This document shows, piece by piece, positions 1-41,330 of a stretch of 64,000 nt of DNA; within the stretch, counting starts at the first letter, position 1; each line of letters begins with the position of its first letter. A model generated the notes under the pieces. That model worked only from the letters and a program-made list of their open reading frames with translations, did not search any database and was not told the DNA's origin. The stretch is taken from positions 1 through 64,000 of the IMG/VR virus record IMGVR_UViG_3300020388_000011, one strand, 5' to 3'. The DNA is from a virus (lineage: Duplodnaviria > Caudoviricetes). Position numbers and translations under genes: made by a program.

Positions 1-57
1 CGATTCCATTTAAAGATCGTATGGCGAGCATATAATACCCCCTATCAATTTTTTGAT

Positions 58-83
58 AACCCCCCTCGGAAAGGGGTTTTTTT
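58..83 (+). terminator. Rho-independent terminator of upstream gene
   Basis: AACCCCCT-CGGAA-AGGGGTT hairpin followed by a T run. Confidence 0.75.
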
Positions 84-84
84 A

Positions 85-93
85 TGCTATAAT
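85..93 (+). promoter_or_regulatory. Extended -10 sigma70-type (early) promoter for glycan cluster
   Basis: TGCTATAAT directly after the terminator, 23 nt before the gmd ATG. Confidence 0.65.
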
Positions 94-116
94 GTATTTT
101 AAGTATTCCATTTGTA

Positions 117-1118
117 ATGAAAGTAGCACTTATTACGGGTATCACGGGACAAGACGGATCTTACCTAGCTGAACTTCTCCTTCAAAAAGGTTATGAAGTT
201 CACGGTATTGTCCGCCGTGCCTCTTTGATTAACACCCATAGAATTGATCATATTTTTGACCGCATCACTCTCCACTATGGAGACCTAACAGATGCCCTAG
301 GTATTGTTAAGATCATTAAGGAAGTCCAACCAGAAGAGATCTATAACCTAGGTGCCCAGAGTCACGTTAAGGTTTCTTTTGATCAGCCAGAGTATACAGC
401 AAATACCGACGCACTAGGCACTCTACGTGTCCTAGAAGCCGTCCGTTTACTTGGTATGGATGATTCAGTACGAATCTATCAGGCTAGCACCAGTGAGCTT
501 TACGGGCTAGTACAGGAGACACCACAAACAGAAACCACTCCGATGTATCCACGTTCTCCTTATGGAGTTGCTAAACTATACGGGTACTGGATCATTAAGA
601 ACTACCGAGAAAGCTATGACTTACATGCCTCTAGCGGAATTCTATTCAACCACGAGAGCAGCCGCCGTGGAGAGACGTTCGTCACGCGCAAGATCGTCCG
701 AGCCTTGTCCAGAATTAGTGTGGGACTCCAAAGTGATCTCCAACTTGGAAACCTCAATGCCCGACGTGACTGGGGACACGCGCAAGACTTCGTTGAAGCA
801 ATGTGGCTTATGCTCCAACAGGAGAAGCCCGATGACTATGTTATCGCAACTGGTGAGCAGTATTCGGTCAAGGATTTTGTAGATGCTGCTGCTCCATACT
901 TTGGCTTCAACATTGAGTGGAGAGGAGAAGGTCTAGATGAGTTTGGTTACTGCCTAAACACCAGTAGAACAGTCATCAAAGTCCATCCTAAATATTTTCG
1001 ACCAGCAGAAGTGGAAACTCTTCTCGGCGATCCAACCAAAGCAAAAAAAGTTTTGGGATGGGAGCCTAAATTTACATTTGATGAACTAGTTGAAGAGATG
1101 GTACTTAATGGACAATAA
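117..1118 (+). CDS. gmd: GDP-mannose 4,6-dehydratase
   Basis: [54 protein letters not shown] motifs. Confidence 0.97.
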
Positions 1119-3190: not shown

Positions 3191-3191
3191 T

Positions 3192-3806
3192 ATGGGAATC
3201 TATAAGGGAAGAGATTTTGCTTTTTATATCTCACCCAAAACTGGTGGAACAACTATTCGTTCATGGATCGTATATTCGCAGACAGAGACTTTAGAAATTC
3301 AGACTCTGGATAAAAATGAATATTCAGTACAGAATGGTATTGGTCAGCAATTAATAACCAATATGGGTTATTATTATAAGGGCTTTAAGGAAGTTAATTC
3401 GCCTGTTAAAGTTTGTGTTAAGAGAGATCCAGTAAGTCGTTTCTTAAGTTGCTATACGGATAAAATTTTACGAGAAAAATGCGCCAATCTTAGTATTGAT
3501 GATATTCTAGATGATCCAAACTGTCTAAAGCAGGGCAGACTTGACGGTATTAATCCTGGATACTATATGGAGAATCACTTCCTCCCACAGTCACATTATC
3601 TAGGTAATGACAATTCATACTATGATATTGTATTTGATACTAGTGAAGTTAGTACTTCTATTAGAGCCTTCTTATCCGAGAAGCTTGGGTGTGAGCTACC
3701 CAATCTTCACACAAGAAAACAAAAAAAGAAGCCTGACCTTACTCAGGATCAAGTTTCAAAGATTAAAGATTTATACGCAACAGATTATGAAAACGGATGG
3801 TTCTAA
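3192..3806 (+). CDS. Carbohydrate sulfotransferase (Sulfotransfer_2-like)
   Basis: 5'-PSB-like PKTGGTTIR, 3'-PB-like KRDPVSRFLSCY, HFLPQ, terminal LYATDY. Confidence 0.75.
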   Translation: MGIYKGRDFAFYISPKTGGTTIRSWIVYSQTETLEIQTLDKNEYSVQNGIGQQLITNMGYYYKGFKEVNSPVKVCVKRDPVSRFLSCYTDKILREKCANLSIDDILDDPNCLKQGRLDGINPGYYMENHFLPQSHYLGNDNSYYDIVFDTSEVSTSIRAFLSEKLGCELPNLHTRKQKKKPDLTQDQVSKIKDLYATDYENGWF

Positions 3807-9131: not shown

Positions 9132-13550
<4,419 letters not shown>

Positions 13551-13584: not shown

Positions 13585-15765
13585 ATGGCAGCCTTTAATT
13601 TTCCAGCGAACCCAAGTATAGGAGACCAAGTAACAAATGGTGGAGTTACTTATACTTGGGATGGTTATAAATGGAACACCACAACCGCACCTTTTAACGT
13701 AGGTGCTACTGGCGCTACGGGCTCATTGGGATTTGGAATCTATGCATTTTGTAGAACTACATCTACTGGTGTCTTACTTCCAAATTATGGTAGCGGTATT
13801 TTTAGTGTAAGTAGATTATCAACGGGTGTGTATAGATATACACTTTCCCAACCATATAATAGCGCGGATTATATGGTTCAGATTTCGTTAGTATCTTCGG
13901 GTAATATTAATCCATCTGACTGGAATACTATTGTTGAGAATATAACACCATCAACATTTGATGTATTTACATATAGAGCAAACAATACACCCATCAACCT
14001 AGAACACGCAGTTTCTGTTTATGGTGTAGATGGTCCTACAGGTACTGGTAGTGCTTATCAGTCTTGGTTGGAAGTTGGTAACTTTGGAACAGAGCAGCAA
14101 TTCATTGACTCATTACAAGGTCCTACTGGTGGTAGTGGAGTTTCAGGTGCTACAGGCGCTACAGGTCCTATTGGTCTTAATGGAGCTACAGGTCCTCAAG
14201 GTCTGGATGGAACATCTGTTGCTCTAAAAGGTACGGTTCCTGACGCAAGTGATCTACCATCAATCCCAGGTACTGTTGAGGGGGATTTGTATGTTGTTCT
14301 TAATAGTGGAAGTGGTTTTAATGCTGGTGATGGTGCCGTAAAAAATGACCTAAACACAGGTACTCTAGCTGATTGGAGTAATGTAGGTCCTCTACAAGGT
14401 CCTCAAGGTGCTAGCGGTCCTATTGGTGCCACTGGTTCTCAAGGTGCTACTGGTATTCAAGGTATACCTTCTACTGATGGCGGCTTCTTTGTTCTTTCAG
14501 GTGAAAGAAGTGGTCCTCCTGGCATCAATCAATTCTTCGCGTGGGGTAATGGAGACAGTGCTGATAATGGAGTACAAATCCAGGAAGGATGTTTCCTTGA
14601 TTATGTTTCTGTTGTAGCTGAAAGACCATTTGGAACTATCCCAGTAGAAGTTACTGCTTATGTAAATGGTTCGGCTACAGGTATTACTGCTACAGGTATC
14701 ACTGGATCAAAAATATCTACTTCTTCAGGTAGTCCTATTCAAATTTTTCCAGGTGATTATTTAAATATTAGATGTAGTCAAAATGGTAACAACTCAACTG
14801 CTGGTGGATCCATTGGTGGTTGTGTGGGTTCTCTACTACTATCAACAGCAGGTGCGCGTGGTGCTACGGGAGAAACAGGTCCTCCTGGACCCCCTGATGG
14901 TGCTACTGGCGAGAGGGGTCCTTTAGGTCCTATCGGTCCCGTTGGTCCAACTGGTCCTATTGGTGCCACAGGTCCTCAAGGTCCCACTGGTATTGGTGCT
15001 CCTGGTGCCTCTGGTCCCCTTGGTGCTACTGGTCCCAATGGTCCTGCTGGTCCTGTGGGTACTATTGTCTTAGGTACTGTTGCTGATGTTGCTAGCCTAC
15101 CCCCAAGTGCTAATGTGGGTGAAGGTTATGTAGTAACTGCCGAAGCTAATGATGTATATGTTTGGAATGGTTCCTCTTGGAATAGTATTGGTCCAGTTCA
15201 AGGTCCCCAAGGTCCTCCTGGTCCTTCTGGTCCCCAAGGTGCTACTGGTATTAAAGAGCAGTCTTATATTAAATCAACATTCTTATCCGAATCAACAGTA
15301 AACACATCAACAACATATCAGACATTTAATGTACTCAATAATTCAGCAATCCTTGAGGCAGGTGGATATAAGTATGCGGCAGAAGTACCTGGAAGACAAG
15401 GTATTGGTGCTGGCGGAATTATTGTCCCAGAAACTGGGATATATATGATTAGTGCTTCTCTATTTTACTCAACTAATGTACAGAGGGCTAGTATTGGATT
15501 GAAATTTGCTATTGCATCTGAAGCTGATCCTGAAGTTACTAACTCCGAAGGAGTTGCTCTACCAGAAGAAGCTGCTATGGGATATATTAGATCTGCTTCT
15601 GGTCATAATGAAGCATCAGTCACTCTTACAACTATCGCTAGTTTAGAATTCATTTCTGGAATTAGGGAAGATCAAGTTCAAATACAGTTGGCTAGATTGG
15701 CTGCAAGTGGTACTGTTACTTTAGAGCCTAATAGAAGTATTATTACGCTTACAAAAATTGCGTAA
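13585..15765 (+). CDS. Collagen-like fibre protein, paralogous to the C-terminal part of 9132..13550
   Basis: Gly-X-Y tracts; shared GGFF..ER.G, TAGARG, W..VG..QGPQG and GYIR...HNE.S motifs. Confidence 0.75.
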
Positions 15766-28112: not shown

Positions 28113-28514
28113 ATGGATACGTATGGTTCACCCGAAGGTTATCTTTTTAACCTCCACACCTGTTCATCTTCTGAAGCAAAACGAATGTGGAAGACAGCTA
28201 TTAAGAATCAATGGAATAATAAATGTGCCTACTGTGGCTCAGATACAAACCTAACATTAGATCATATAGTTCCACGTTCAAAAGGAGGAAGTAATCATAC
28301 GACAAATGTATTATGTGCATGTGAATCATGTAATTCAGATAAAGCATATACCGAATGGATCATCTGGTATATCGAACAGCCATTCTTCACTGAAGAGCGC
28401 CGCGAGGCAATCGAAAAATGGATGTTCCCTACAGAGGAAGTAAATCCAAATCTATTTGTGCAAGAGCAACCAAAGAAAGTTTCTTATGGTCGCCGTAGAA
28501 CTAGATCATACTGA
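28113..28514 (+). CDS. HNH endonuclease
   Basis: CAYCG...TLDHIVPRSKGG...NVLCACESCNSDK. Confidence 0.9.
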   Translation: MDTYGSPEGYLFNLHTCSSSEAKRMWKTAIKNQWNNKCAYCGSDTNLTLDHIVPRSKGGSNHTTNVLCACESCNSDKAYTEWIIWYIEQPFFTEERREAIEKWMFPTEEVNPNLFVQEQPKKVSYGRRRTRSY

Positions 28515-28740: not shown

Positions 28741-31700
28741 ATGATTTCATCAGAAACCAAAATTATACTAAAGCGCTCTGGTGTACAGGGGCGTATCCCA
28801 TCCTTAGCTGATCTAAAACTAGGGGAGCTGGGAGTCAATTATTATGATGGCAAACTATATTTTCGTCAAGAAAATGAAAGTGTGGGGGCTCGAATTATTG
28901 AGCCTGGTCAAGGTGACGATATTGGTAGGACTATTTTCGTAACCGTAAATGGTAACGACAACAACTCAGGTCTTAACGAGAGAGACTCCGTAAGAACTAT
29001 TAAGAAAGCTGCCGAGTTAGCAGCATATGGTGACGGCATTAAAGTTTTTCCAGGACATTATATTGAAGACAACCCCATCGAATTCCGCGATCTAGTTGCG
29101 GTTGAGGGTATGGATCTTCGTAACGTTCTAGTTACTCCAGCAAATCCAGAGAAAGATTTATATTTAGTTGGTGACGGTTTCCACGCAACTAACCATTCAT
29201 TCGTCTCTAATGTAGATTCACGTGATGGTGCTGCCATCATCTCATTCCGTCCTCTAGAAGGCACAGCATCTGATCGCTACTTTGATGCTGCTCGTCTAAT
29301 CAGAGATAACCTAGACTTCATTGCAAGTGAGACTGTCGGATTCTTAACAAGTGGGTATTCAGGTTTTGCCGCTGGTCAAAGGTCCCAAGATGCTGCGCGT
29401 GCTCTGGAGTTAAATACACAGTTCATTACTGAAGAAGCTTTCCAATACATCAATAGTCCTGATTATAAAGGACCTTCCTATGTAAATCCAGATATCAATC
29501 AGTGTCGTAGGGATCTTAAAGATATTCTAAACGGTTGGAGATATGATTTAATCTCTGATGGTAACTCTGAGTCAACGGGTGTAGGTTTAACTTATTATGC
29601 CCCTGTCAAGTTTATCAACTCAACTAATATCACTGATTTAGTTTATGACAATACTACTGGATTGCTAATACTTGAAACTGAATTAAGCACCCAGGTACTT
29701 CCTGGGCAGGAGATTAAGCTACGTGATATTCAGCTTGATTGCCCACCATATAATAATACATTCTTTATCGCAGGATTTAATTACAACAATATTAGTGGTG
29801 TTGGTACAGTAACTCTACCATTTATTCACGATATTCAAGCTGGTGATACAATCAAGCTAGATGATCTAAAGTTTGACTGTCCCCCATATGGTGCTCAATC
29901 ATATCCAGTATCTAACTTTGTTTATGATGAAACAACAGGTTCAAGTACAGTAACTCTATCTTCCGAGCATAACTTGAAGATTGGTGAAAAGATTGAACTA
30001 AGAGATCTTCAGTTTGATTGTCCTGCTTATGGTGGAACGTTCACTGATATTGTAAATCTTGAATATAATAATGTAAGTGGTGAAGCCACACTCACATATG
30101 CTGATGCTGCTAATCTAGACGTTGGTGATATAGTACTACTCTATGATATCAAACTATCTTGCCCATCATATGGCAACGCAATCTCAATTACTGGATTCGA
30201 TTACGACAACTTCACTGGTATAACCGAGACCACATTTGCGACCCCACATAATCTACGTACTGGTGATCTAGTTAAGTTTGAGAATCTTAAGTTTAGCTGC
30301 GATAGTTACTTGAGTGAGTCTTATAATATCATCGCGTTTGATTATAATAATTTAACTGGAGAAGCCCTAGCAACATTTAATACTGATCACAGCCTAACAG
30401 GTGGTAGTGATGTTACTCTAGATGACCTAGTATTTTCTTGCAATAGCTACATTCCAACGGGAATTGCTATCACATCATTCATCTATAATGAAGCTAGTGG
30501 TAACAGCATAATTGGATTGAGTCATCCTCATGATCTACAAATTGGAGACCGTTTCCAGTTAGATAATCTTGTATTTGCATGTAATAGCTATAGTTTCACA
30601 GACATTGACATTTTAAATGCTTCATATGATAATGTAACTGGCTTTGTAAACATTGCTCTAGTATCTAATCATGGCAGTCAAGTAGGTCAGCTTGTAAAAC
30701 TAACTGGTCTTGAGTATTCCTGCTCCAACTCCGGTATCACCACAACAATTTTCCCCGATGGAACGATTGGAGACGAGTTTGAGATTCTTTCAGTTCCTGC
30801 ACCCAATCAGATGATCGTCAATGTGGGTGTTTCTACTATTGCACATAGCTATGTGGATGGTGGAACCGCTACTGTTGGCATCACAACCACAGTATTCCCT
30901 GATGGAACACAGGGATTTGATTTCACTGTGACTGATTTGGTTGATTCATTGACACTCGTCACGAATGTTGGAGTGTCAACTATTGCTCACACATATGTTG
31001 GTAATGGCACACTAAAAGTTGGTTTCACGACAACGGTATTCCCAGATGGAACCCAAGGTGATAAATTCCCCGTTTTAGGAGTTCCTTCCGCCAATTCTGT
31101 CGTTATTCAAGTCGGCGTATCCACGATTGCCCACACCTACGTTGGTGGTGGCACTGCATCCAATGAGAATAATTTCTTAAGAGTATCTGATTTTGATTAC
31201 AATGATACTGACGGTACGGGTCTAGTAACCTTACTAAGGGATCACGACTTAATTGTTGGTGATAGTTTTATCCTAGAAGATCTTAAGTTCACCTGCGATA
31301 GCTATAGATCTACAGCTAATACATTGGATATTACGGACTTCCAGTATGATAATGCTACTGGGCAGTCTGTTATCACTCTAGCCTCATCTCACAATCTACA
31401 GCTAGATGACACCATAGCATTATATGATATTGAGTTCACTTGTCCAAATGGATCGGGAGTTAGTACATCTATCTTCCCTGACGGTTCTGTTCCCAACTTT
31501 TACGATGTACTTGCTGTTCTAAATCCAAACACAATCGTCACTAATGTTGGTGTATCATCAATCACCCACACATATTTTCAAGGTGGAAAGCTACAAGTTG
31601 GTATCACTACTAACATCTTCCCAGATGGAACTCTCCCAGCAGGAAATTTCTTTAGAGTAATTTCAGTTCCTGCACCAAATCAAGTTCTAACTAAAGTTGG

Positions 31701-34700
31701 AGTTAGTTCCATTGCTCATACCTATGCTTCTGGTGGAAAGTTCTATACAGGTATCACAACTAATATTTTCCCACAGACATTTGAAGATCCTAATGTAAGA
31801 GTTACTAACGCAACTTATGACAATGTGACTGGTGTAGTCACCATCATCTGTGATGATGCTCACGGTTTAGTTTCCAGTGACCTAGTACTTCTTCAGGGAC
31901 TAGAGTTCTCTTGTGCTTCAGGTGGTCCTGGTGGTGCTCCTGGCGTATTACTATTCCCACGTAACCAAGAAACTTATGAGGTTGTCAGTGTAATAGATCC
32001 TTTCAGCTATACCATTGATGTTGGTCCAAATTCTATCCCACATACATATATTTCTGGTGGTATTTCCACTCGTCAAAATATTATTGATGCAGTATATAAC
32101 AGATCCAGTGGAGAACTATCCGTTACTCTTGATAGACAGCACGGTTTGGTTAAGGGAGATAACGCAAGTGTAGTTGATTTATTATTCTCCTGTGCTTCAG
32201 GTGGTGCAGGTAATGCACCTGGACAACTATTATTCCCACGACCAACTGATGAGTTTGAAATCATAAGTTCAAATGCTTCACAATTCACAATCAACGTAGG
32301 CTCATCAATTGGGCTACCACACACATATGTTAATGGTGGATCTGCTAGTATCGGGGGAGTGACTTCTTCAATTACCAATGCATTATATGATGACGAGACA
32401 GGTTTACTTGTAGTAACAACCAGCGCCGCCTTAGCAACAACACCTGGAGCTATAATTAAAGTTCAAGGTCTAAACTTTGCGTGTAATTCTGGTGGTCCTG
32501 GTAATGATCCAGGCACAGTCATCTTCCCACGTCTAGATGTTCCAGTATTTGAAGTTGTTAATGTAGTTAATGAAACAACATATGTAATTGATGTAGGTAC
32601 TTCAACTTTAGCACATACATATATCTCTGGTGGTTTCTCTAGCCTCAAGAAAAAAATTAACGATCAAAATATCTTTGAAGTTATTGGTACACCAACACCT
32701 AACACGATCATAACTAATGTTGGCGTGAGCTCTATCCCCCACACTTATGTGAGTGGTGGTAATGGTTTCGTTGGAATCACTACTAACATCTTCCCAGATG
32801 GAACTCGTCCTACAGGAAGTCGTTTTGAAATTCTAGGTAAGCTCTCACCAAATAAAGTAATTATTGAGGTAGGAATCTCTAGCATCCCACATAATTATCA
32901 AAGTGGTGGAAGAATGCAATATGGAGAAACCAATGAGCGTGCTATTTTAGATGTTGATTATAACAACCTAACGGGTGGAGCTACGGTTATTGTACGTGGT
33001 CCTCACGGTCTATCCACTGGTGATAATGTCAAGCTCACTGGTATGGAGTTTGAATGTACTAACAGCCCAGGTATTACCACCACTATCTTCCCTGATGGGA
33101 CAGCTGCCAGTCTCAATATCTTCCCAGTAACTGGTATTATAAACAACACAACATTCACAACTAATGTGGGTCGAGTTCCTTTTGCTCACACCTATGTTCA
33201 GGGTGGAGATGCTTTTGTTGGAATCACTACTAACATCTTCCCTGATGGTACGCAAGGATATACCTATATTGTAGATTCTATTCCTTCCCCCACTCAGGTT
33301 AATCTAAATGTTGGTGTCTCCAGTATCCAGCACAATTATATTAGAGGCGGCTTACTCTTCAGTGGACAAACTAATGAGCGTGATATCGCAAACTTTGACT
33401 ATGATTTTAAATCAGGTCTAGCAATTCTAACATTTAGAGAGCCAGAAGCAAATCTCTTTACGGGTGATCTAGTTAAGCTAAAAGATCTACGCTTTGAATG
33501 TCCTAATAGTACTTCCATAACCACTAACATCTTCCCAGATGGTTCACAAGGAAACCTCTTTAAAATTACGGAGAGATTAAACCCAACGCAGTTCCAATTA
33601 GATATTGGTACATCATCATTTGCTCACATCTATGTACAAGGAACAGGAGAAGCATTCGTTGGTATTACTACTAACATCTTCCCTGATGTGGGAGGTAATC
33701 CTGGTCAGCAACCAACAAAATTATTCAATGTAATTAATATTCCAACCCCAAATACTGTTGCTGTTCAGGTTGGTCCTTCTTCCATTCCACATATCTATGA
33801 GGGTGGTGGTACACTATCAGTTGGTATTAACACAGATATTTTCCCTGGCGATAGTCAAGTATCTCCACGAGGAGACGTATTTATTGTTGATGCAATCACA
33901 GAATCTGGGGAGTTAGTAATCAACGTTGGAACTTCCACAATCACTCACGATTATGAGAGAGGTGGTCAAGTTCTATATGGTCAGAGTGCTGGTGGAGAGC
34001 TACAGCATATCACTGGTCCTGGTGTTAAGCAAGCAACCATTGCTGCTATTGATTTTGAGCGAGATATTTCCAAGTATGCTTTAAATAATCGCCCATGGGG
34101 TTCATTTATTGCTGCTGAAACGGGTCTGGTTCAACAACTTGGTTATGATAACATCAGTGGCTTCGCCACAGTAACCGTACCTGGAATCAATGTTCAGCGT
34201 GGGGATATGATAAGGATGAGTGATATTCAGTTTGTCTGCTCCGATGAGTATGCTGGACTAACTACTACATTCTTCCCAGACAATACTCGCCCAGAAGGTC
34301 AGTACTTCACGGTTGATAATCGTATTGATGAGAATAATTTTGAAACTTTCATTGGCATCTCTACGATCAAACACAACTACTTTAAAGGTGGCAACGTATA
34401 TCGTTATCGCCAAGCTCTTGATGATATTTTATACGATAGATTTAGTGGTGTAGCCAGTGTAACTTCACTAGATCACGGGTATAAGGTAGATGACGTTATT
34501 GAGATGGGTGAGATTCGTTTCTCCTGTCCAGTATTTACACCCGACTATGATATTGAAGACTTTATTTACGACAATACAACTGGTTTATCTACAGTAACAA
34601 CTACCGTTGATAATGATGTGAAAGTTGGTGATCTAATTCGTTTGGATGACATTGAACTTGATTGCCCTCCATACGGTAATGATAAAAATATTATTGACTT

Positions 34701-37700
34701 TGATTACAATAATCTTACTGGCGTATCATCAATCACTGTACTTCAGCCACATGGTCTAACATTAAACGCAAGACCACCTGTAGCAATTTCAACAGCTGTT
34801 TATGATAATGTCTCTGGAATTATTACCGTAACTACTGTAGTACCTACTAATGTTGATCTATCAATTGAAAGTGGTGTTCAGCTATCAGGTCTTGGATTCT
34901 CTTGCCTTGGTACTTCTGGTATAACAACAACAATCTTCCCAGACGATTTAGGTTTAATCTATCCTATTAAGGAGATCAATAATAGCACTACCTTCTCAGT
35001 TAAGGTTGGCGTATCAACAATCCCCCACATCTATCAAGGTGGTGGTGATGTAACTAAAGTAAGTAGGTATAGCATTAAGCTAGCTGACATTAAATTTGAC
35101 TGTCCATCTTATGGCAATTCTATTGATGTTTCTAACTTCGTATATGATAATACAACTGGAAACTCACTAGTATCTGTGGTCTCCCCACACGGTCTTAATG
35201 TTGGGGACAATATTAAGTTGTCTGATATTAAGTTCCAGTGTCCTCCATATGGAAATCAGTATAATGTTGTGGCTGCTGACTATGACAACCTTAGTGGTAT
35301 CATAACCATTACTACTAACCGCGATCTAGGTGGAATTGATATTGGCGAGACCTTAAGAATTAGAGACTTGCAGTTTGATTGCAACTCTGGAACTCCTTTC
35401 GCAATTCAGCAGATCACTTTTGACCCATTCAATGGACGTATAGCTACACTCACACTCAATGCCGATCCAAGAATTAATCCAGGTGATAGGATTAAACTAG
35501 CAGGTCTTCTATACAGAAATGCGGCTGGTGATGAGATTCCTTATCCTGATGGAAGAGATCCTAGCTATAACCTATTTGATGCTAGAACAGTAACACAAGT
35601 AAGTCCTGGTGTTTGGGAAGTTCAAGTTCAGTTTGTTAACATCACTGATACATTTGTAATCTTCCTGGTTAATGGAAATGATTACGGTACATTATTCACT
35701 GGCGTAACAGGAAACATATTCCCAGAAGATGTAGGTCCTGAAGGTGGATTCTATGATGTTCTAGGTCTTCCAGCTTCCAATCAATTCACCGCGCAAGTTG
35801 GAGTCTCAACTATTGCTCACACATACATTAGATATGGTGAAGTATTCTCTGGAGTAACTACAAACTTCTTCCCAAGCCCAAGCACACAGAACTCACCCAA
35901 AGGAAATATCTATGAGGTTATTGGAGTTCCAACTCCTAATGAAGTTAGAATTAATGTTGGCATCTCAAGTATCACTCACGTATATGGTTCAGGTGGTTCC
36001 TTATCTGTAGGTATTACTACTAATATCTTCCCTGATGGGACAGATGGTAACATATTCCCAGTCATTAGCATTGGTAGTTCAACTGAAGTTCGTGTGAAAG
36101 TTGGAACTTCTACTATCCCACACAACTATATTAGTGGTGGATTGATGGCTGTAGGTATCACTACAAACATTTTCCCAAGCAACAATCCACAAAACTCACC
36201 TCTAGGAAATATCTTTACTGTTCTTAGTAAGGATGATATGTGTCCTGATAGATTCACTATTAATGTTGGTGTATCTAGCATCCCACACTCCTATGTTGAG
36301 GGTGGAACTGTAACCACAGGAGTAACAACTGATAAGTTCCCAGATGGAACTAATGGTTTTGAATTCCCAGTTACTGAAGTATTAGATGAAGATACCTTCC
36401 TGGTGAATGTGGGACCCTCTACCATCAGCCACACTTACCTTTCTGGTGGATTTACTAGACGCATTGAAAGTCCTATCAATGACTTTATATACAATAATGA
36501 GTCTGGAGCTGCGTTGGTTGGAGTAACTAGTCATAGACTTAATGTTGGTGACCTAGTGAGGTTACGTGACATCAAGTTTGATTGTGACCCATATGGTGAT
36601 GAGAAGATGATCAGTGGGGCAAATTACAATAACTTAACAGGAAGACTAATTGTAACCACTGATACAGCACACGGGCTATCAATTAATGAGACTATCAAAC
36701 TTGCTGGCATACAGATGGATTGCCCTGCCTATGGCAATGACATTGCCATTACTGGTGCCAACTATAATAATATAAGTGGTGACATTAATGTAACAGTTGC
36801 TGCCGCACATGGTCTATCAATTGGTAGCAATGTCAAATTAGCTGGATTAGATTTTGTATGCCCCGGTGGCTCTGGTATTACTACCACAATCTTCCCCGAT
36901 GATACGGCAGCTAGCCTCAATATCTATAGAGTAACAGCAGTTCCAGCATCCAACTCATTGACAGTTAATGTGGGCACTTCAACTATCACGCACACGTATG
37001 TTGGCGGTGGAGATATCTTTGTCGGTATTACTACAAACATCTTCCCAGGTAGTGCTCAAAACTCACCACTCGGCAGTTTCTATGAGGTATTAGATACTCC
37101 CTCCCTAACAGAATTTACTTTGAATGTTGGTGTCTCATCCATCTCACACGAATATATACGTGGTGGATTGGTACAGACTGGAGTCACTACTGATATGTTC
37201 CCTGATGGAACTCAAGGTGAGTACTTTGAAGTTAATGATGTTATTAGTACCGATACATTCTCAATCAACGCAGGTATTTCTTCCATCGTCCACCGATATA
37301 ATTCAGGTGGATTCAGTTCTAAGTATTCTACTTACCAATCAAGGACTCCACAAGTTGTTGATATGTCCGTAACACGTGTACCTAGGGGCTGTGAGGCTGT
37401 AGCTGCCCGTGTAGATCAGTTGTCTAACATTGTAACCTCCATTATTAACGAAGGTCCCTCAGCGGCTCCTGGTGAGGTTCCAGTGAATGTAACTTCAGCC
37501 TCTTATAATAAACTAACAGGAGATCTTTCAGTAACTACTAATAGAGAAACTGTACTAGCTCCTAAAGATATTGTGAGGATGGAAAATCTAATCTTCCAAT
37601 GCAGTAAGACTAGCACGGTTGTAGGTGCTACTTATAATAACTTAACAGGTAAGCTTGTAATAACGACCGAAGCTAAAAACGGTATTGTTATTGGTAGTAG

Positions 37701-40700
37701 CGTTACTATGGAAGGTCTTGTATTTGGATGTAGTGATGGTAGCTTGATCTACCCATCAAATGTTGATCAAGTATTCCCTGTAGCTGAAATCCTATCACCA
37801 ACTAAGTTTGTATTGAACCTAGAAAAATCTAGCAAAGTTCATACCTGGACTAGTGGTGGTACAGTAACAACTGTAGCAACCCAACGTGTATTCCCAGACA
37901 ATGGTGTTGTACTATACCCCGTTAAGGCTGTTCTATCCCCATCAACATTTACAATTAATGTTGGACCTTCTGATATTGATCATTCCTATATCAATGGAGG
38001 TACTATTTCTCCTGGATTAAGATACGAGGTAGAAGATGCAGACTATAATAAAATCTCTGGTCTCCTAACAGTAACAACAGAAAAAGATCATCTCCTAGTA
38101 GCTGATACAGGTGTGCGGTTGAATGGTTTGATTTTCTCTTGCCTATCTGGAGGTACAAATAATCAGGCAGGCTCACTACCTTTCCCCGATGGAAGACCTG
38201 CCAATGTTGTTAATGCTGTATTCAATCACATTACTGGATCACTTCGCATCACAACAGAGAAGCCACATCAAGCATATCGTGATGCCAAAGTTCGCCTAGA
38301 AAATCTTGAGTTCTCTTGTGTAGCTGGGGCAGAAGTATATCCACTCAATCCAGATAAACTTCTCCGCGTGGTTGAGGTAGAAGATTTCTATACATATAAA
38401 GTTCAACTAAAGCCAACTCCCAAAGTTCATACTTATGTACAGGGAGGGACTTCTACTGTAGGAACTAACGTATATAATGTTAATTCGGTAGTTAACGCAC
38501 GTACATTTACAGTACAGATGGCACCTAATAACTTATCTCATACGTATGAGGGTGGTGGTACTGTAGCTTCAGTATTCTGTGAGCAGATTCAAGATGGTAT
38601 TAACTTACGCACTAAACTATGTGCCAATGACGTTGGTAAGATTTATCTAGCAGTTGTTTATGACATCACACGTGGCGGTAATATGAAGTCTGTAGAGGCA
38701 GCACAACTTTATTATGATGCTGTCGGTCAGTATCAGCATCTTGCTGGTGGTGAAGTCAGTCAGACAGTAGAAGCACTAGACTACTCACTCAATATTGTAC
38801 GTTGTATCATCAACAATGTAACTTGGGGAGGCATTCCACGTGGATACTTTACCAAGCGTGAAAGAGCGTTTATTCCAACCAAAGCCAATTTGTCTGCACC
38901 CCTTCTAAATAGATCTCTATCTCGTGATCTACTACGCTTGGCTGATATGCCACCTTCTACAACTCAATCTGTTGTATGTATTGAAAAGGCGTATGAGAGA
39001 GGACAGTATACAACCAAGAAGAAGTTTATTGAGGCTCTCGATTACAATAATATTACTGGTATCGGATCATTTACAACCAGACAGGCTCATCGCTTAATCA
39101 AGCAGGATGCCATCCGCCTAGCAGATATCCAGATGCGTTGTGTGGGTAGCCCAAGAGTCACCACTAACATCTTCCCAGATGGTACACAAGGTGATATCTT
39201 TGAGGTCATGGAGACCTTCCAGGACAATCCAGCTAATGTTGTCGGTACTGCTGACTACAATAATGTAACTGGTAACTTGATTATTGGATGCCCAGGTGTT
39301 GATTTGGAATATGAGGTTGGCACACTTGTCAACTTAAGAAATCTACGTTGGGTATGTGGATCATTGGATATCAAAGTATATCCAACCAATCCCGATTATG
39401 TCTACGAAGTTAAGCAGTTACTATCTTCCGACTCATTCCTAGTTAATGTAGGGGTCTCAACAATACCCCACACGTTTGTGGCTGTAGGAAATGAGTCTAT
39501 AGTCCCCATTGTTCAGGAGCTTCCTAGGAAGTTCACTGCTCACGTAGGAACAGTCAACTTCCCCCACATTTATGAGAGTGGTGGAAGCGTATGGAAGCAA
39601 GAGCCTTTCAGTACACCATCTACTCAAACTCAGTTACGTGATGTTTCTATTCAAGATGATCCAAGACAATTCTCTAACGCCACACCAAATGCTTGTGCGA
39701 ATGTCTTCTCCGCAATTGAGAACGCAGTTGGTGTTGTAACAACCATCATTGACGTTGGCTTTGAAGATTCTGGCATCGTTATTAGCTATCCAGGAAACGA
39801 TGGTAAGGGAGTACCAACAATTGAACAAATGGCATCACAAGGTGTCGGTAATATTGTCAAAGGTCCATACATCAGAAACTGCACCAACTTCGTTCCTAAG
39901 TCAATTGGAATGAGAATGGATGGTTTTGATGCTGAACCAGGCGATGAGATTCCTAACGGTGTTCAAGGTTCATCTAACGTTGACTCCTTTACCCAGTTCA
40001 ACCCAGGTGGTATTGGTTGTTCCATCTCCAATGGTACATATCAACAGCTCGTTTCTATCTTCACCATCTGTTGTGATGAAGCTATCGTAGCTGACTCTGG
40101 AGCACAGCTTGACCTTACTAACTCCAACTCATCCTTCGGTACTCTGGGTCTAGTTGCTCGCGGTATCGGTGACGCAAACTCCAAGTGTATTGACCGATAT
40201 ACTGGTGTGGTAGCTGAGCAAGCAGAGCTTGATGACGATGTAGTCATCATCCGGGGTATCGGTAACAAACGTCCATATGATGGTCAAGGAATCTTCTTCG
40301 GTGAGTTGTACCGTGAGGTTACCGAAATTCAAGTTACGGATGGGGGATCTGGTTATAGTGATGAAAATCCACCGATAGCATCTGTTTCTATACCAGAAGG
40401 TCCTTCTGGAATTAAAGCTGAGGTGTCGCCTACAGTACTTGATGGAAAGGTTGTTTCTATTGAACTGATCTCCAATGGTAATCAGTACCTGGTGGTAAGT
40501 CCAACCGTTACGATTGCTCCACCAGTAAGACCTGACGGTAGGCAAGCTAAAGCTATCGCAATCACTGAACCAATTTACTATGACGTTGATAGTTCTACTG
40601 CCCCAGATGAGGGAACTGTACGAGTCATTTTCAAACAAAGGCTAAATAATACAGTATCTGTAGGTACCACCGTATTCTTCTCCCGCTTGAGTCTACAAAT

Positions 40701-40968
40701 CGCATCATCACACTCCTTTGAGTATATTGGTTCGGGTAATAGCATTGACGGCGCGAGACCTTCACAGGGCGGGGTTCCTATTAAAGCTAATGAAATCGTT
40801 AAGCAAAACGGCGGTCAAATCGTCTATACCTCAACGGATCAAGCAGGTAACTTTAACATCGGTGATGATTTCGTAATTAACCAGTTCACTGGCACAGTTA
40901 CGGGAAGGTCCTTTGATCAATCGGTGCTAAATAAAGTAACGCCACTCATCATCGCATTGGATAGCTAA
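28741..40968 (+). CDS. Giant 4075-aa virion structural/fibre protein with about 32 beta repeat domains
   Basis: Late promoter at 28675; gp34-like N-terminus IILKRSGVQGRIP..L.LGEL.VN.YDGKLY; pectin-lyase-like motifs; repeats YDN.TG..H.L..GD..KL..F.C and IFPDG...VNVG.S...H.Y..GG. Confidence 0.85.
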   Translation: MISSETKIILKRSGVQGRIPSLADLKLGELGVNYYDGKLYFRQENESVGARIIEPGQGDDIGRTIFVTVNGNDNNSGLNERDSVRTIKKAAELAAYGDGIKVFPGHYIEDNPIEFRDLVAVEGMDLRNVLVTPANPEKDLYLVGDGFHATNHSFVSNVDSRDGAAIISFRPLEGTASDRYFDAARLIRDNLDFIASETVGFLTSGYSGFAAGQRSQDAARALELNTQFITEEAFQYINSPDYKGPSYVNPDINQCRRDLKDILNGWRYDLISDGNSESTGVGLTYYAPVKFINSTNITDLVYDNTTGLLILETELSTQVLPGQEIKLRDIQLDCPPYNNTFFIAGFNYNNISGVGTVTLPFIHDIQAGDTIKLDDLKFDCPPYGAQSYPVSNFVYDETTGSSTVTLSSEHNLKIGEKIELRDLQFDCPAYGGTFTDIVNLEYNNVSGEATLTYADAANLDVGDIVLLYDIKLSCPSYGNAISITGFDYDNFTGITETTFATPHNLRTGDLVKFENLKFSCDSYLSESYNIIAFDYNNLTGEALATFNTDHSLTGGSDVTLDDLVFSCNSYIPTGIAITSFIYNEASGNSIIGLSHPHDLQIGDRFQLDNLVFACNSYSFTDIDILNASYDNVTGFVNIALVSNHGSQVGQLVKLTGLEYSCSNSGITTTIFPDGTIGDEFEILSVPAPNQMIVNVGVSTIAHSYVDGGTATVGITTTVFPDGTQGFDFTVTDLVDSLTLVTNVGVSTIAHTYVGNGTLKVGFTTTVFPDGTQGDKFPVLGVPSANSVVIQVGVSTIAHTYVGGGTASNENNFLRVSDFDYNDTDGTGLVTLLRDHDLIVGDSFILEDLKFTCDSYRSTANTLDITDFQYDNATGQSVITLASSHNLQLDDTIALYDIEFTCPNGSGVSTSIFPDGSVPNFYDVLAVLNPNTIVTNVGVSSITHTYFQGGKLQVGITTNIFPDGTLPAGNFFRVISVPAPNQVLTKVGVSSIAHTYASGGKFYTGITTNIFPQTFEDPNVRVTNATYDNVTGVVTIICDDAHGLVSSDLVLLQGLEFSCASGGPGGAPGVLLFPRNQETYEVVSVIDPFSYTIDVGPNSIPHTYISGGISTRQNIIDAVYNRSSGELSVTLDRQHGLVKGDNASVVDLLFSCASGGAGNAPGQLLFPRPTDEFEIISSNASQFTINVGSSIGLPHTYVNGGSASIGGVTSSITNALYDDETGLLVVTTSAALATTPGAIIKVQGLNFACNSGGPGNDPGTVIFPRLDVPVFEVVNVVNETTYVIDVGTSTLAHTYISGGFSSLKKKINDQNIFEVIGTPTPNTIITNVGVSSIPHTYVSGGNGFVGITTNIFPDGTRPTGSRFEILGKLSPNKVIIEVGISSIPHNYQSGGRMQYGETNERAILDVDYNNLTGGATVIVRGPHGLSTGDNVKLTGMEFECTNSPGITTTIFPDGTAASLNIFPVTGIINNTTFTTNVGRVPFAHTYVQGGDAFVGITTNIFPDGTQGYTYIVDSIPSPTQVNLNVGVSSIQHNYIRGGLLFSGQTNERDIANFDYDFKSGLAILTFREPEANLFTGDLVKLKDLRFECPNSTSITTNIFPDGSQGNLFKITERLNPTQFQLDIGTSSFAHIYVQGTGEAFVGITTNIFPDVGGNPGQQPTKLFNVINIPTPNTVAVQVGPSSIPHIYEGGGTLSVGINTDIFPGDSQVSPRGDVFIVDAITESGELVINVGTSTITHDYERGGQVLYGQSAGGELQHITGPGVKQATIAAIDFERDISKYALNNRPWGSFIAAETGLVQQLGYDNISGFATVTVPGINVQRGDMIRMSDIQFVCSDEYAGLTTTFFPDNTRPEGQYFTVDNRIDENNFETFIGISTIKHNYFKGGNVYRYRQALDDILYDRFSGVASVTSLDHGYKVDDVIEMGEIRFSCPVFTPDYDIEDFIYDNTTGLSTVTTTVDNDVKVGDLIRLDDIELDCPPYGNDKNIIDFDYNNLTGVSSITVLQPHGLTLNARPPVAISTAVYDNVSGIITVTTVVPTNVDLSIESGVQLSGLGFSCLGTSGITTTIFPDDLGLIYPIKEINNSTTFSVKVGVSTIPHIYQGGGDVTKVSRYSIKLADIKFDCPSYGNSIDVSNFVYDNTTGNSLVSVVSPHGLNVGDNIKLSDIKFQCPPYGNQYNVVAADYDNLSGIITITTNRDLGGIDIGETLRIRDLQFDCNSGTPFAIQQITFDPFNGRIATLTLNADPRINPGDRIKLAGLLYRNAAGDEIPYPDGRDPSYNLFDARTVTQVSPGVWEVQVQFVNITDTFVIFLVNGNDYGTLFTGVTGNIFPEDVGPEGGFYDVLGLPASNQFTAQVGVSTIAHTYIRYGEVFSGVTTNFFPSPSTQNSPKGNIYEVIGVPTPNEVRINVGISSITHVYGSGGSLSVGITTNIFPDGTDGNIFPVISIGSSTEVRVKVGTSTIPHNYISGGLMAVGITTNIFPSNNPQNSPLGNIFTVLSKDDMCPDRFTINVGVSSIPHSYVEGGTVTTGVTTDKFPDGTNGFEFPVTEVLDEDTFLVNVGPSTISHTYLSGGFTRRIESPINDFIYNNESGAALVGVTSHRLNVGDLVRLRDIKFDCDPYGDEKMISGANYNNLTGRLIVTTDTAHGLSINETIKLAGIQMDCPAYGNDIAITGANYNNISGDINVTVAAAHGLSIGSNVKLAGLDFVCPGGSGITTTIFPDDTAASLNIYRVTAVPASNSLTVNVGTSTITHTYVGGGDIFVGITTNIFPGSAQNSPLGSFYEVLDTPSLTEFTLNVGVSSISHEYIRGGLVQTGVTTDMFPDGTQGEYFEVNDVISTDTFSINAGISSIVHRYNSGGFSSKYSTYQSRTPQVVDMSVTRVPRGCEAVAARVDQLSNIVTSIINEGPSAAPGEVPVNVTSASYNKLTGDLSVTTNRETVLAPKDIVRMENLIFQCSKTSTVVGATYNNLTGKLVITTEAKNGIVIGSSVTMEGLVFGCSDGSLIYPSNVDQVFPVAEILSPTKFVLNLEKSSKVHTWTSGGTVTTVATQRVFPDNGVVLYPVKAVLSPSTFTINVGPSDIDHSYINGGTISPGLRYEVEDADYNKISGLLTVTTEKDHLLVADTGVRLNGLIFSCLSGGTNNQAGSLPFPDGRPANVVNAVFNHITGSLRITTEKPHQAYRDAKVRLENLEFSCVAGAEVYPLNPDKLLRVVEVEDFYTYKVQLKPTPKVHTYVQGGTSTVGTNVYNVNSVVNARTFTVQMAPNNLSHTYEGGGTVASVFCEQIQDGINLRTKLCANDVGKIYLAVVYDITRGGNMKSVEAAQLYYDAVGQYQHLAGGEVSQTVEALDYSLNIVRCIINNVTWGGIPRGYFTKRERAFIPTKANLSAPLLNRSLSRDLLRLADMPPSTTQSVVCIEKAYERGQYTTKKKFIEALDYNNITGIGSFTTRQAHRLIKQDAIRLADIQMRCVGSPRVTTNIFPDGTQGDIFEVMETFQDNPANVVGTADYNNVTGNLIIGCPGVDLEYEVGTLVNLRNLRWVCGSLDIKVYPTNPDYVYEVKQLLSSDSFLVNVGVSTIPHTFVAVGNESIVPIVQELPRKFTAHVGTVNFPHIYESGGSVWKQEPFSTPSTQTQLRDVSIQDDPRQFSNATPNACANVFSAIENAVGVVTTIIDVGFEDSGIVISYPGNDGKGVPTIEQMASQGVGNIVKGPYIRNCTNFVPKSIGMRMDGFDAEPGDEIPNGVQGSSNVDSFTQFNPGGIGCSISNGTYQQLVSIFTICCDEAIVADSGAQLDLTNSNSSFGTLGLVARGIGDANSKCIDRYTGVVAEQAELDDDVVIIRGIGNKRPYDGQGIFFGELYREVTEIQVTDGGSGYSDENPPIASVSIPEGPSGIKAEVSPTVLDGKVVSIELISNGNQYLVVSPTVTIAPPVRPDGRQAKAIAITEPIYYDVDSSTAPDEGTVRVIFKQRLNNTVSVGTTVFFSRLSLQIASSHSFEYIGSGNSIDGARPSQGGVPIKANEIVKQNGGQIVYTSTDQAGNFNIGDDFVINQFTGTVTGRSFDQSVLNKVTPLIIALDS

Positions 40969-40973
40969 GTATC

Positions 40974-41330
40974 ATGGCAGCAGTAGCACTAAACAAATTT
41001 CTAACGGTAAGACATTTGGTTACCGACTCCAAGGTGGGGATTTATACTGCACCCATTGGAGTTGCTTCCATTGTTCTTTTTGCTCAAGCCACTAATGTTG
41101 GTTCGGGCGATCAAGCAGGAATTAAATTCGTCACCTTTTCTCACGCCAGACCTGGTGACATTCCTGAAGACTTTCAAATTATCAATGATGGTCCAGTCAT
41201 CCCCAATGATGCATTGAACTTAATTATTGGTAGGCTCGTTCTTGAAACGGGTGATGAGTTAGTCCTTCAAGGCGACTCGACCGGAGATGTGAAGGTTGTA
41301 GTCTCTATTCTAGAAACAGCTAAGAGCTAA
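40974..41330 (+). CDS. Small virion structural protein
   Basis: IYTAP.G...IVL..Q.TN, G(R/K)LVLETGD pattern seen in cyanophage fibre loci. Confidence 0.65.
   Translation: MAAVALNKFLTVRHLVTDSKVGIYTAPIGVASIVLFAQATNVGSGDQAGIKFVTFSHARPGDIPEDFQIINDGPVIPNDALNLIIGRLVLETGDELVLQGDSTGDVKVVVSILETAKS

What the first reader, a model, noticed from the sequence alone, without database searches (positions are those of the whole stretch)
29629..39585. Recursive 'matryoshka' protein: repeat half-domains nest like balanced parentheses
Seen (manual parse): the repeat has an N-half (YDN.TG...H.L..GD.IKL..[LI].F.C) and a C-half (GITTNIFPDG...F.V...VNVG.S.I.H.Y..GG), and they do not simply alternate. The first block (about 29629-33966) opens eight N-halves in a row, closes three, opens and closes sub-branches, and returns to exactly zero after 15 pairs. 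Later blocks (about 34138-37311, 37480-38560, 39030-39585) each also balance, giving 32 N- and 32 C-halves with maximum depth 8. Most insertions fall just after the Cys; a few fall inside a half (after IFP/FPDG or HGL) and the interrupted half resumes after the guest domain. Inference: domains were repeatedly inserted into loops of the same domain, so one chain folds out and back as a branched, tree-shaped appendage rather than beads on a string. I know of no description of this architecture at such depth.
Basis: partly seen in the sequence, partly recalled or inferred. Interest (0 to 1): 0.92.

Follow-up and report, generated by a model that had tools for sequence, protein, structure and literature searches.

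The report
Recursively nested barrel domains, cyanophage fibre
A 4075-residue tail-module protein of a T4-like marine cyanophage is built from 32 copies of one small beta-barrel domain, inserted into one another up to eight deep like balanced brackets. This is deeper than the six-level example given in a 2026 survey of protein domain insertions.

Summary
ORF 28741-40968 (+, 4075 aa) holds 32 N-halves (38 aa, ending in a Cys) and 32 C-halves (44 aa, GITTNIFPDG...HTY..GG). Their order is a perfectly balanced bracket word with maximum depth 8. Depth returns to zero exactly at the three long non-repeat linkers (chance about 9e-6).

Four halves are themselves interrupted and resume after a balanced guest.

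In homologues, 24 of 31 orthologues and 48 of 62 complete proteins sharing the same end domains parse as balanced. There are 22 distinct balanced architectures and depth never goes negative. Orthologues differ by matched N+C gains or losses.

One N plus one C makes a roughly 80-residue barrel like the E1 FCCH domain and the phage endosialidase barrel (Z 9-10). In the AlphaFold models, non-adjacent matched halves form this barrel around their guests at three successive levels.

The whole 3500-residue repeat region is itself an insertion in a probable beta-helix, which is unsplit in one relative.

The gene lies among tail-fibre and baseplate genes. Relatives occur almost only in marine cyanophages.

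The principle is already known: hybrid-motif domains are nested six levels deep in cyanobacterial RNA polymerase Si3. This fold, host protein, depth and domain count appear undescribed.

All 3D evidence is predicted. The function, a multivalent adhesion or spacer appendage, is inferred.

The parts
28741..40968 (+). Giant gene, 4075 aa (P0001): frame domains plus 32 nested barrel domains
   Evidence: PHROG 3442 (unknown function) and the 'tail fiber' PHROGs 17885 and 5342.
28741..29253 (+). N-terminal fibre-type motif and the N-part of a probable DUF1565-like beta-helix (aa 1-171)
   Evidence: Pfam DUF1565 is sub-threshold (E 0.017). Residues 65-155 align to P0249 34-122, where the helix continues without a break.
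29254..29628 (+). First helical linker region (aa 172-296)
   Evidence: Non-repeat sequence with a weak Phycobilisome-like Pfam hit at 209-275. Helical nature is inferred from sequence and was not folded.
29629..33966 (+). Block 1: 15 barrel domains, trunk 8 deep with four side branches (aa 297-1742)
   Evidence: HMM parse. AlphaFold model of aa 483-1340 with structural alignment ranges.
31750..31779 (+). Head of the split C-half (aa 1004-1013, GITTNIFPQT). Its tail resumes at 32665-32760 after three guest domains
   Evidence: HMM positions 1-10, then 13-44.
33967..34128 (+). Linker 1 (aa 1743-1796), non-repeat, homologous to part of linker 3
   Evidence: BLAST of the linker segments.
34129..36450 (+). 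Block 2: 8 domains. It includes a split N-half (head 34690-34764, tail 35071-35103) and a degenerate Cys-less domain (aa 2227-2320)
36475..37311 (+). Block 3: NNNCCC, three domains nested (aa 2579-2857)
   Evidence: AlphaFold model m47c899056586. Structural alignments at 41..237 and 87..185.
37312..37488 (+). Linker 2 (aa 2858-2916)
37489..38559 (+). Block 4: NNCC, plus N with a split C holding one guest (aa 2917-3273)
38560..39027 (+). Linker 3 (aa 3274-3429), non-repeat module
   Evidence: It is conserved in shorter family members.
39028..39585 (+). Block 5: N with a split C holding one guest (aa 3430-3615)
39586..40965 (+). C-terminal frame: the C-part of the beta-helix (aa 3672-3809 = 39754-40167) and a conserved C-terminal domain
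   Evidence: Residues 3672-3809 align to P0249 123-239, directly after the N-part. The frame is shared by 62 complete family members and 130 phage records.
40974..41330 (+). Small conserved downstream ORF (118 aa, PHROG 1276, unknown function). Possibly an accessory of the giant gene
   Evidence: A 116-120 aa gene follows the orthologue in loci L003-L009; in L002 (S-CAM7) a 54-aa gene follows instead.

Best explanation
The gene encodes a tail or baseplate-associated structural protein of a T4-like marine cyanophage, near Synechococcus phages S-CAM7 and ACG-2014f.

Its repeat unit is one roughly 85-residue beta-barrel domain of the E1-FCCH / endosialidase-barrel type. The N-half ends in a conserved Cys. 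The C-half starts at GITTNIFPDG. The two are normally joined by a 3-7-residue loop.

During evolution, further copies of the same domain were inserted, mostly into that loop and sometimes into other loops. This happened recursively. The chain therefore lays down the N-halves of up to eight domains on the way out, completes the innermost domain, and supplies the C-halves on the way back. Side branches are added on the return path.

Each trunk junction is crossed by two short linkers (8-9 and 4 residues). This should give a stiff, two-stranded, branched array, not beads on a single thread.

The five repeat blocks are separated by non-repeat linker modules (helical by sequence appearance only), and the whole 3500-residue assembly is an insertion in a probable beta-helix frame.

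Inferred function: a long multivalent adhesion or reach appendage for the cyanobacterial surface. The same barrel type is a sugar-binding module in endosialidases (my own knowledge) and an outward-facing decoration on phage tail tubes (PMC13576161).

Shown: the sequence grammar, its conservation, and the predicted fold and pairing. Inferred: stiffness, overall shape, virion location and ligand binding.
For: - Grammar: the parse into 32 N and 32 C is balanced, with depth 8. The probability of balance with zeros at the linkers is 8.7e-6.
- Conservation: 24 of 31 orthologues are balanced. Of 62 complete proteins with both frame ends, 48 are balanced in 22 distinct architectures, and depth is never negative.
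- Orthologue differences are matched pairs: NC versus NNCC, three versus four NC guests, NNCC versus NC or NNNCCC.
- Fold: 48 and 57 chains at Z >= 8, E1 FCCH or endosialidase barrels in all rows shown.
- Discontinuous pairing in the models: 41..237 with 79 residues aligned, Z 9.8-9.9, rmsd 1.8-1.9. 85..279 with 78 aligned, Z 6.7, and 328..523 with 77 aligned, Z 5.8. 43..329 with 72 aligned, Z 5.2.
- A BFVD model of a nested region in a cyanophage ACG-2014f protein superposes at TM 0.67 over 291 columns.
- Coupling test: p = 0.012 for P0001.
- Regular linkers.
- Frame split shown by P0249.
- Tail-fibre and baseplate neighbours.
- The family is confined to cyanophages plus one pelagiphage.
Against: - No experimental structure exists. 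The models have pLDDT 72-75 and pTM 0.34-0.49, so domain-to-domain geometry is uncertain.
- The outermost pairs (model 1: 1..279; model 2: 1..858) did not appear in the match lists.
- In the tandem-guest region, model 2 packs a C-half with the following N-half (685..762) into something that matches other small barrels at Z 6-7.5.
- The coupling test was weak in some proteins (p about 0.2 for P0007 and P0027).
- 14 of 62 complete homologues parse with surplus N-halves. I attribute this to the less sensitive C-half model, but that is unproven.
- Virion presence, oligomeric state and ligand are untested.
Confidence: 0.8

Rival explanations
1. Domain-swapped oligomer. The N-halves of one chain pair with C-halves of another chain in a dimer or trimer, so the balanced word reflects intermolecular complementation and not an out-and-back fold of one chain.
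For: Equal numbers and mirrored order of N and C would also be needed for an antiparallel swap. Most phage fibres and beta-helix tailspikes are trimers (my own knowledge).
Against: - Monomer models already complete the barrels within one chain at three levels.
- The innermost pairs are joined by only 3-7 residues, which forces pairing within the chain.
- Guests inside split halves are hard to reconcile with a simple swap.
Confidence: 0.08
2. The halves are independent mini-modules, or each packs with whichever half is next in sequence, forming a continuous beta-rod. On this view the balance is a by-product of duplicating larger blocks.
For: Model 2 shows a C-half plus the next N-half (685..762) resembling other small barrels at Z 6-7.5. 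Long strands run across the linkers in both models.
Against: - Halves of 38 and 44 residues each match only half of an 80-residue FCCH barrel.
- Discontinuous pairs align as one barrel.
- Balance holds in 22 different architectures, and depth never goes negative in 62 proteins. Block duplication alone would not guarantee this.
- Split halves resume after their guests.
Confidence: 0.06
3. Assembly or annotation artefact of repetitive DNA.
For: Long repetitive genes are prone to mis-assembly.
Against: - The ORF is uninterrupted over 12.2 kb.
- Repeats are only 20-34% identical at protein level.
- Orthologues of the same architecture occur in four complete S-CAM7 isolate genome records, many ACG-2014f records and independent metagenome contigs.
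Confidence: 0.01

Closest known systems
Si3 insertion of cyanobacterial RNA polymerase beta' (RpoC2): nested sandwich-barrel hybrid motifs
   Same: One small beta domain family is inserted recursively into copies of itself. Several domains are built from distant chain segments, and the result is an elongated body with branch points. It is described as 8 domains at 6 levels (PMC10895346, PMC13114784).
   Different: - Different fold: hybrid motif there, FCCH-like Greek-key barrel here. The Si3 crystal structure 8emb matched only at Foldseek probability 0.04.
- Cellular enzyme versus phage structural protein.
- 8 domains at 6 levels versus 32 domains at 8 levels (10 counting the linker and beta-helix hosts).
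- Here the half-domains are regular enough to be read as a bracket grammar from sequence alone.
E1 ubiquitin-activating enzyme FCCH domain (PF16190) and the beta-barrel domain of phage endosialidases (K1F, phi92)
   Same: Same predicted fold: 75-82 residues aligned, rmsd 1.8-2.5 A, Z 8-10. Faint sequence hits to PF16190. From my own knowledge, both reference domains are themselves inserted into a host domain and so have adjacent termini.
   Different: Pfam score 13.4 against a cutoff of 29.5, so there is no sequence-level membership. The known examples are single copies and host no further copies.
FCCH-type decoration domains on siphophage tail tube proteins, and related small barrels in lambda gpJ and in N4, T1 and FCWL1 tail proteins
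   Same: Outward-facing small barrels on phage tails (PMC13576161). Structural matches at Z 5.4-7.9.
   Different: Those are single appended domains, not nested arrays.
Shorter members of the same cyanophage frame family (727-2200 aa; for example the P-SSM2 'tail fiber-like protein' and S-CAM9 'tail fiber protein')
   Same: Same N- and C-terminal frame and the same barrel, with 2-7 domains in balanced arrangements such as NNCC, NCNCNC and NNNNCCCC.
   Different: The window's protein and its orthologues are the expanded extreme, with 32 domains at depth 8.

Membership tests
E1_FCCH (Pfam PF16190) / FCCH-like Greek-key barrel | Sequence score at or above the Pfam gathering threshold | tested here: not met
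   13.4 bits against a cutoff of 29.5. 14.2 bits in P0206.
E1_FCCH (Pfam PF16190) / FCCH-like Greek-key barrel | Compact roughly 80-residue closed beta-barrel that superposes on solved FCCH domains | tested here: met
   On predicted models only: Z 8-9.8, rmsd 1.9-2.7 A, 74-80 residues aligned, over 40 E1 chains.
Recursive (nested) domain-insertion architecture, A1-B1-C-B2-A2 | Host domain formed from two chain segments that flank a complete guest domain | tested here: met
   Discontinuous alignments at 41..237, 85..279, 43..329 and 328..523, each with 72-79 residues aligned to a contiguous barrel. These are predicted models.
Recursive (nested) domain-insertion architecture, A1-B1-C-B2-A2 | Segments obey a balanced, never-negative order in the protein and its homologues | tested here: met
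Sandwich-barrel hybrid motif (SBHM) of RNA polymerase Si3 | SBHM fold | tested here: inconclusive
   8emb_A appears only at Foldseek probability 0.04. The best matches are FCCH-type barrels. This is analogy of architecture, not shown homology.
Phage tail fibre / baseplate-attached protein | Gene lies in the tail-fibre and baseplate module, with profile matches to tail-fibre families | tested here: met
   Neighbours hit tail-fibre and baseplate-wedge PHROGs. The protein itself hits PHROGs 17885 and 5342. Relatives are annotated as tail fibre or baseplate.
Phage tail fibre / baseplate-attached protein | Presence in purified virions and attachment site | not testable with these tools
   No proteomic or imaging data were examined.
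DUF1565 / right-handed beta-helix (frame domain) | Pfam match at or above threshold | tested here: inconclusive
   E 0.017 in P0001 and E 0.0035 in P0249, both below the cutoff. ESM Atlas nearest cluster is DUF1565 at 0.94.

The most novel reading that the evidence does not exclude
This may be the deepest recursive self-insertion of a protein domain yet seen: eight levels of one barrel, about ten counting the linker hub and the split beta-helix. It would define a class of cyanophage host-contact appendages built as two-stranded branched trees. Recombination between repeats would add or remove whole bracket-matched domains, giving a grammar-preserving way to vary length and valency.
Probability: 0.5. 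Interest if true: 0.82.

Novelty: new variant of a known kind. Interest (0 to 1): 0.72.

Why it matters
- **Depth.** A 2026 survey of 2.7 million classified domains presents six-level nesting in cyanobacterial RNA polymerase as its example of extreme complexity (PMC13114784). A phage protein with 32 copies at depth 8, readable as a bracket grammar from sequence alone, extends that limit.
- **A natural series.** Family members from 2 to 34 domains offer a way to study how nested domains fold, for example inner before outer. They also allow study of how two-linker junctions affect stiffness, and how insertions and deletions keep the grammar intact.
- **Phage biology.** The protein is a large, widespread and unannotated component of the tail module of abundant marine cyanophages, and may contribute to host recognition.
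- **Methods.** Tools that cut long proteins into pieces will break such nests, so these architectures are likely under-counted.

Tried and rejected
- A strict stack parser that required explicit heads and tails of split halves failed on nearly all proteins, because short heads (10 aa) fall below HMM detection. I replaced it with a rule that counts N heads and C tails.
- The search for related loci with a single protein returned only one near-identical locus. Orthologous DNA was obtained through the look-up of encoding contigs instead.
- Model coordinates are not exposed, so contacts could not be measured directly. Pairing was inferred from the alignment ranges of structural matches.
- The outermost domain of each model (1..279; 1..858) never appeared in those lists.
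- Profile-profile comparison of N-half against C-half found no homology (probability 0.2%). An ancient internal duplication is therefore not visible in sequence.
- PDB sequence searches with the N- and C-terminal frames gave nothing.
- Foldseek against the PDB gave no hit at E <= 0.001. The all-against-representatives aligner was needed.
- Seven literature searches found no description of this phage architecture. The library lacks most subscription journals.
The oligomeric state is open.
- Descent from host RpoC2 Si3 was considered and not supported, because the fold differs.
Full report
**What is there**

The finding lies inside one uninterrupted ORF, 28741-40968 on the + strand, of 4075 residues. 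Pfam gives nothing above threshold, only a faint E1_FCCH hit of 13.4 bits. PHROGs place the protein in family 3442 (unknown function) and, through its repeats, in 'tail fiber' families 17885 and 5342.

The DNA is closest to the T4-like cyanomyoviruses Synechococcus phage S-CAM7 (76% over the first half) and ACG-2014f. Flanking genes match tail-fibre, collagen-like fibre, baseplate-wedge and long-tail-fibre families. An HNH endonuclease gene lies directly upstream.

**Checking the observation**

I built separate profile HMMs for the two halves:
- N-half: 38 positions, I..F.YDN.TG......H.L..GD.I.L..L.F.C.
- C-half: 44 positions, GITTNIFPDG...F.V........NVGVSSI.HTY..GG.

Every unit is found with a per-unit E-value of 1e-10 to 1e-23. 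No other ORF in the window carries them.

- Eight N-halves open block 1 and three C-halves close.
- A two-deep branch opens and closes.
- One C-half begins (GITTNIFPQT, residues 1004-1013), is interrupted by three complete N+C domains, and resumes at 1309.
- The word returns to zero at residue 1742 after 15 pairs.
- Blocks 2 to 5 (residues 1797-2570, 2579-2857, 2917-3273, 3430-3615) each balance.

The total is 32 + 32, with maximum depth 8. Four halves are split, one N and three C, and each resumes after a balanced guest.

Depth zero coincides with the three long non-repeat linkers. For a random order of 32 N and 32 C this has probability 8.7e-6. Spacing is strikingly regular: 8-9 residues between successive N-halves and 4 residues between successive C-halves.

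**Homologues**

A search with residues 2579-2857 returned 120 large proteins. A profile of 13 contiguous N+C domains found 551 representative proteins among 1.84 billion.

For parsing I counted N heads and C tails, because 10-residue heads of split halves escape the HMM. The results:
- 24 of 31 orthologues are exactly balanced. The rest are off by one or two surplus N, and none goes negative.
- Orthologues differ by matched gains or losses. The guest inside the split N is NC or NNCC. The split C holds three or four NC guests. NNCC alternates with NC or NNNCCC. A shorter subgroup has a five-deep trunk in place of eight.
- 62 complete proteins share both the N-terminal and C-terminal non-repeat regions, at 727 to 5709 residues. 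Of these, 48 are balanced in 22 distinct architectures (NNCC, NCNCNC, NNNNCCCC, NNNNCCCNNCCC and others). Depth is never negative.

**What the unit is**

I folded two sub-trees with alignments of nine orthologues.
- Model 1: residues 2579-2857, NNNCCC, pLDDT 75.
- Model 2: residues 483-1340, a four-deep trunk, a two-deep branch and the split C with three guests, pLDDT 71.5.

Each N-half shows four strands and so does each C-half.

Structural comparison gave the following:
- Contiguous N+C units (model 1: 87..185; model 2: 136..231, 373..472, 532..630) match the FCCH domain of ubiquitin E1 enzymes and the beta-barrel domain of phage endosialidases. Values are Z 8-10, rmsd about 2 A and 75-82 residues aligned. 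There were 48 and 57 chains at Z >= 8.
- Weaker matches are riboflavin synthase, ferredoxin-reductase FAD domains, elongation-factor domain 2 and small barrels of phage tail proteins.
- The same barrel also aligns to discontinuous stretches of the models:
  - Model 1, 41..237: 79 residues aligned, Z 9.8-9.9, rmsd 1.8-1.9. This is N2 + C2, skipping the inner domain.
  - Model 2, 85..279: 78 aligned, Z 6.7.
  - Model 2, 43..329: 72 aligned, Z 5.2.
  - Model 2, 328..523: 77 aligned, Z 5.8.

In the models, therefore, bracket-matched halves close one barrel around their guests at three successive levels of the trunk and in the branch. A BFVD model of a nested region in a cyanophage ACG-2014f protein superposes on model 1 at TM 0.67 over 291 columns.

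As a sequence-only check, I learned residue couplings between N and C on 207 non-redundant contiguous pairs. The true partner beat a random one in 77% of cross-validation trials. I then scored the non-contiguous pairs. Bracket partners beat permuted partners in P0001 (p = 0.012) and in some other proteins, but only weakly in others.

**Higher levels**

The repeat blocks are separated by non-repeat linker modules. Linker 1 and linker 3 are homologous to each other.

The ends of the protein belong together. In P0249 (1179 aa), the segment matching P0001 65-155 is followed directly by the segment matching P0001 3672-3809. About 3500 residues of the window's protein are therefore an insertion into that domain.

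The domain looks like a DUF1565-type right-handed beta-helix. The Pfam hit is sub-threshold and the nearest ESM Atlas cluster scores 0.94. Its identity is probable, not shown. I tested the split of the frame but not the linker hub.

**How it most likely works**

Shown: a bracket grammar, its conservation, and predicted barrels made of matched halves.

Inferred:
- The chain runs out through N-halves and back through C-halves, so both ends of each sub-tree sit at its base.
- Each trunk junction is bridged by two short linkers, which should make the array stiffer and more nick-tolerant than a single-thread string of domains.
- Branches arise where extra domains were inserted on the return path.
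- Recombination between similar repeats can add or delete whole domains without breaking the fold of the hosts. This would explain the family's size range.

The function I favour is a long, multivalent, low-affinity adhesion or reach appendage of the baseplate or tail. This rests on three things: the gene's neighbourhood; annotations of relatives as tail fibre or baseplate proteins in 130 phage records, almost all marine cyanophages; and the roles of the same barrel type elsewhere. That barrel is a sugar-binding module of endosialidases (my own knowledge) and an outward decoration of siphophage tail tubes (PMC13576161). Virion presence, oligomeric state and ligand are untested. The complex predictor was closed.

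**Comparison with what is known**

Recursive insertion of a small beta domain into itself is established for the Si3 insertion of cyanobacterial RNA polymerase. Its eight hybrid-motif domains include four built from distant chain segments (PMC10895346). A 2026 survey of 2.7 million classified domains describes it as a six-level nest and uses it as the example of extreme complexity (PMC13114784).

The present case works in the same way but is not a member of that family. The fold is FCCH-like, and the Si3 crystal structure matched only at Foldseek probability 0.04. It differs in host protein, number of copies (32), depth (8, or about 10 with its hosts) and regularity.

Seven literature searches found no description of it. 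The library lacks most subscription journals.

**Weak points**

- Everything three-dimensional is a prediction of moderate confidence.
- The outermost pair of each model was not seen in the match lists.
- One region of model 2 (685..762) packs a C-half with the following N-half.
- A domain-swapped oligomer cannot be excluded.

**Verdict**

This is a new variant of a known kind, of considerable interest to protein-architecture and phage-structure specialists.

Noticed in passing
window 40974-41330 (+): A 118-aa ORF directly downstream matches only the first 113 positions of PHROG 1276. The giant protein matches later positions of that profile through its barrels. A 116-120-aa gene follows the orthologue in seven of the eight loci fetched, L003-L009. 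It may be an assembly factor, or a detached piece of a fused form.
   Followed up: partly
window 29365-29565 (aa 209-275); P0249 residues 307-351: The linker modules between repeat blocks give Pfam Phycobilisome (PF00502) hits. The hit is above threshold in P0249 (27.7 bits, E 3e-6) and weak in the window's protein (E 0.096). Several large relatives carry precomputed PF00502 hits. Whether this is a globin-like helical domain is untested.
   Followed up: partly
P0032, P0033, P0126 and other proteins carrying Pfam PF14240 (YHYH): A second family of giant proteins (4400-7000 aa) carries the same barrel. It has runs of eight or more N-halves followed by C-halves, possibly nested even deeper. The parse is incomplete because the C-half model misses divergent copies.
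   Followed up: partly
model of aa 483-1340, model residues 685-762 (window 32241-32474): In the three tandem guest domains, the model packs the C-half of one domain with the N-half of the next. The result matches other small barrels (phage distal-tail/baseplate proteins, Pbp11, AlaX) at Z 6-7.5. This may be a model error in a lower-confidence variant domain, or a real inter-domain packing.
   Followed up: no
window 35419-35700 (aa 2227-2320): One domain is degenerate. The N-half lacks the Cys (LLYRN in place of F.C), and its C-half (IPYPDG...) is too divergent for the HMM. It still sits at a position that keeps the brackets balanced.
   Followed up: partly
window 28113-28514 (+): An HNH endonuclease gene lies immediately upstream of the giant gene here and in all eight orthologous loci fetched.
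   Followed up: no
barrel domains throughout 29629-39585: Across 13 contiguous domains the invariant residues are Gly11, Cys37 (end of the N-half), Pro50 and His82 (C-half). Tyr6 and the final GG are nearly invariant. The Cys and His come from different halves. A shared metal or structural site is possible but could not be tested without coordinates.
   Followed up: no
window 9132-13550 and 13585-15765 (+): Two further large tail-fibre genes with collagen-like segments share a C-terminal region with each other, seen as PHROG 28263 and 33894 cross-matches.
   Followed up: no
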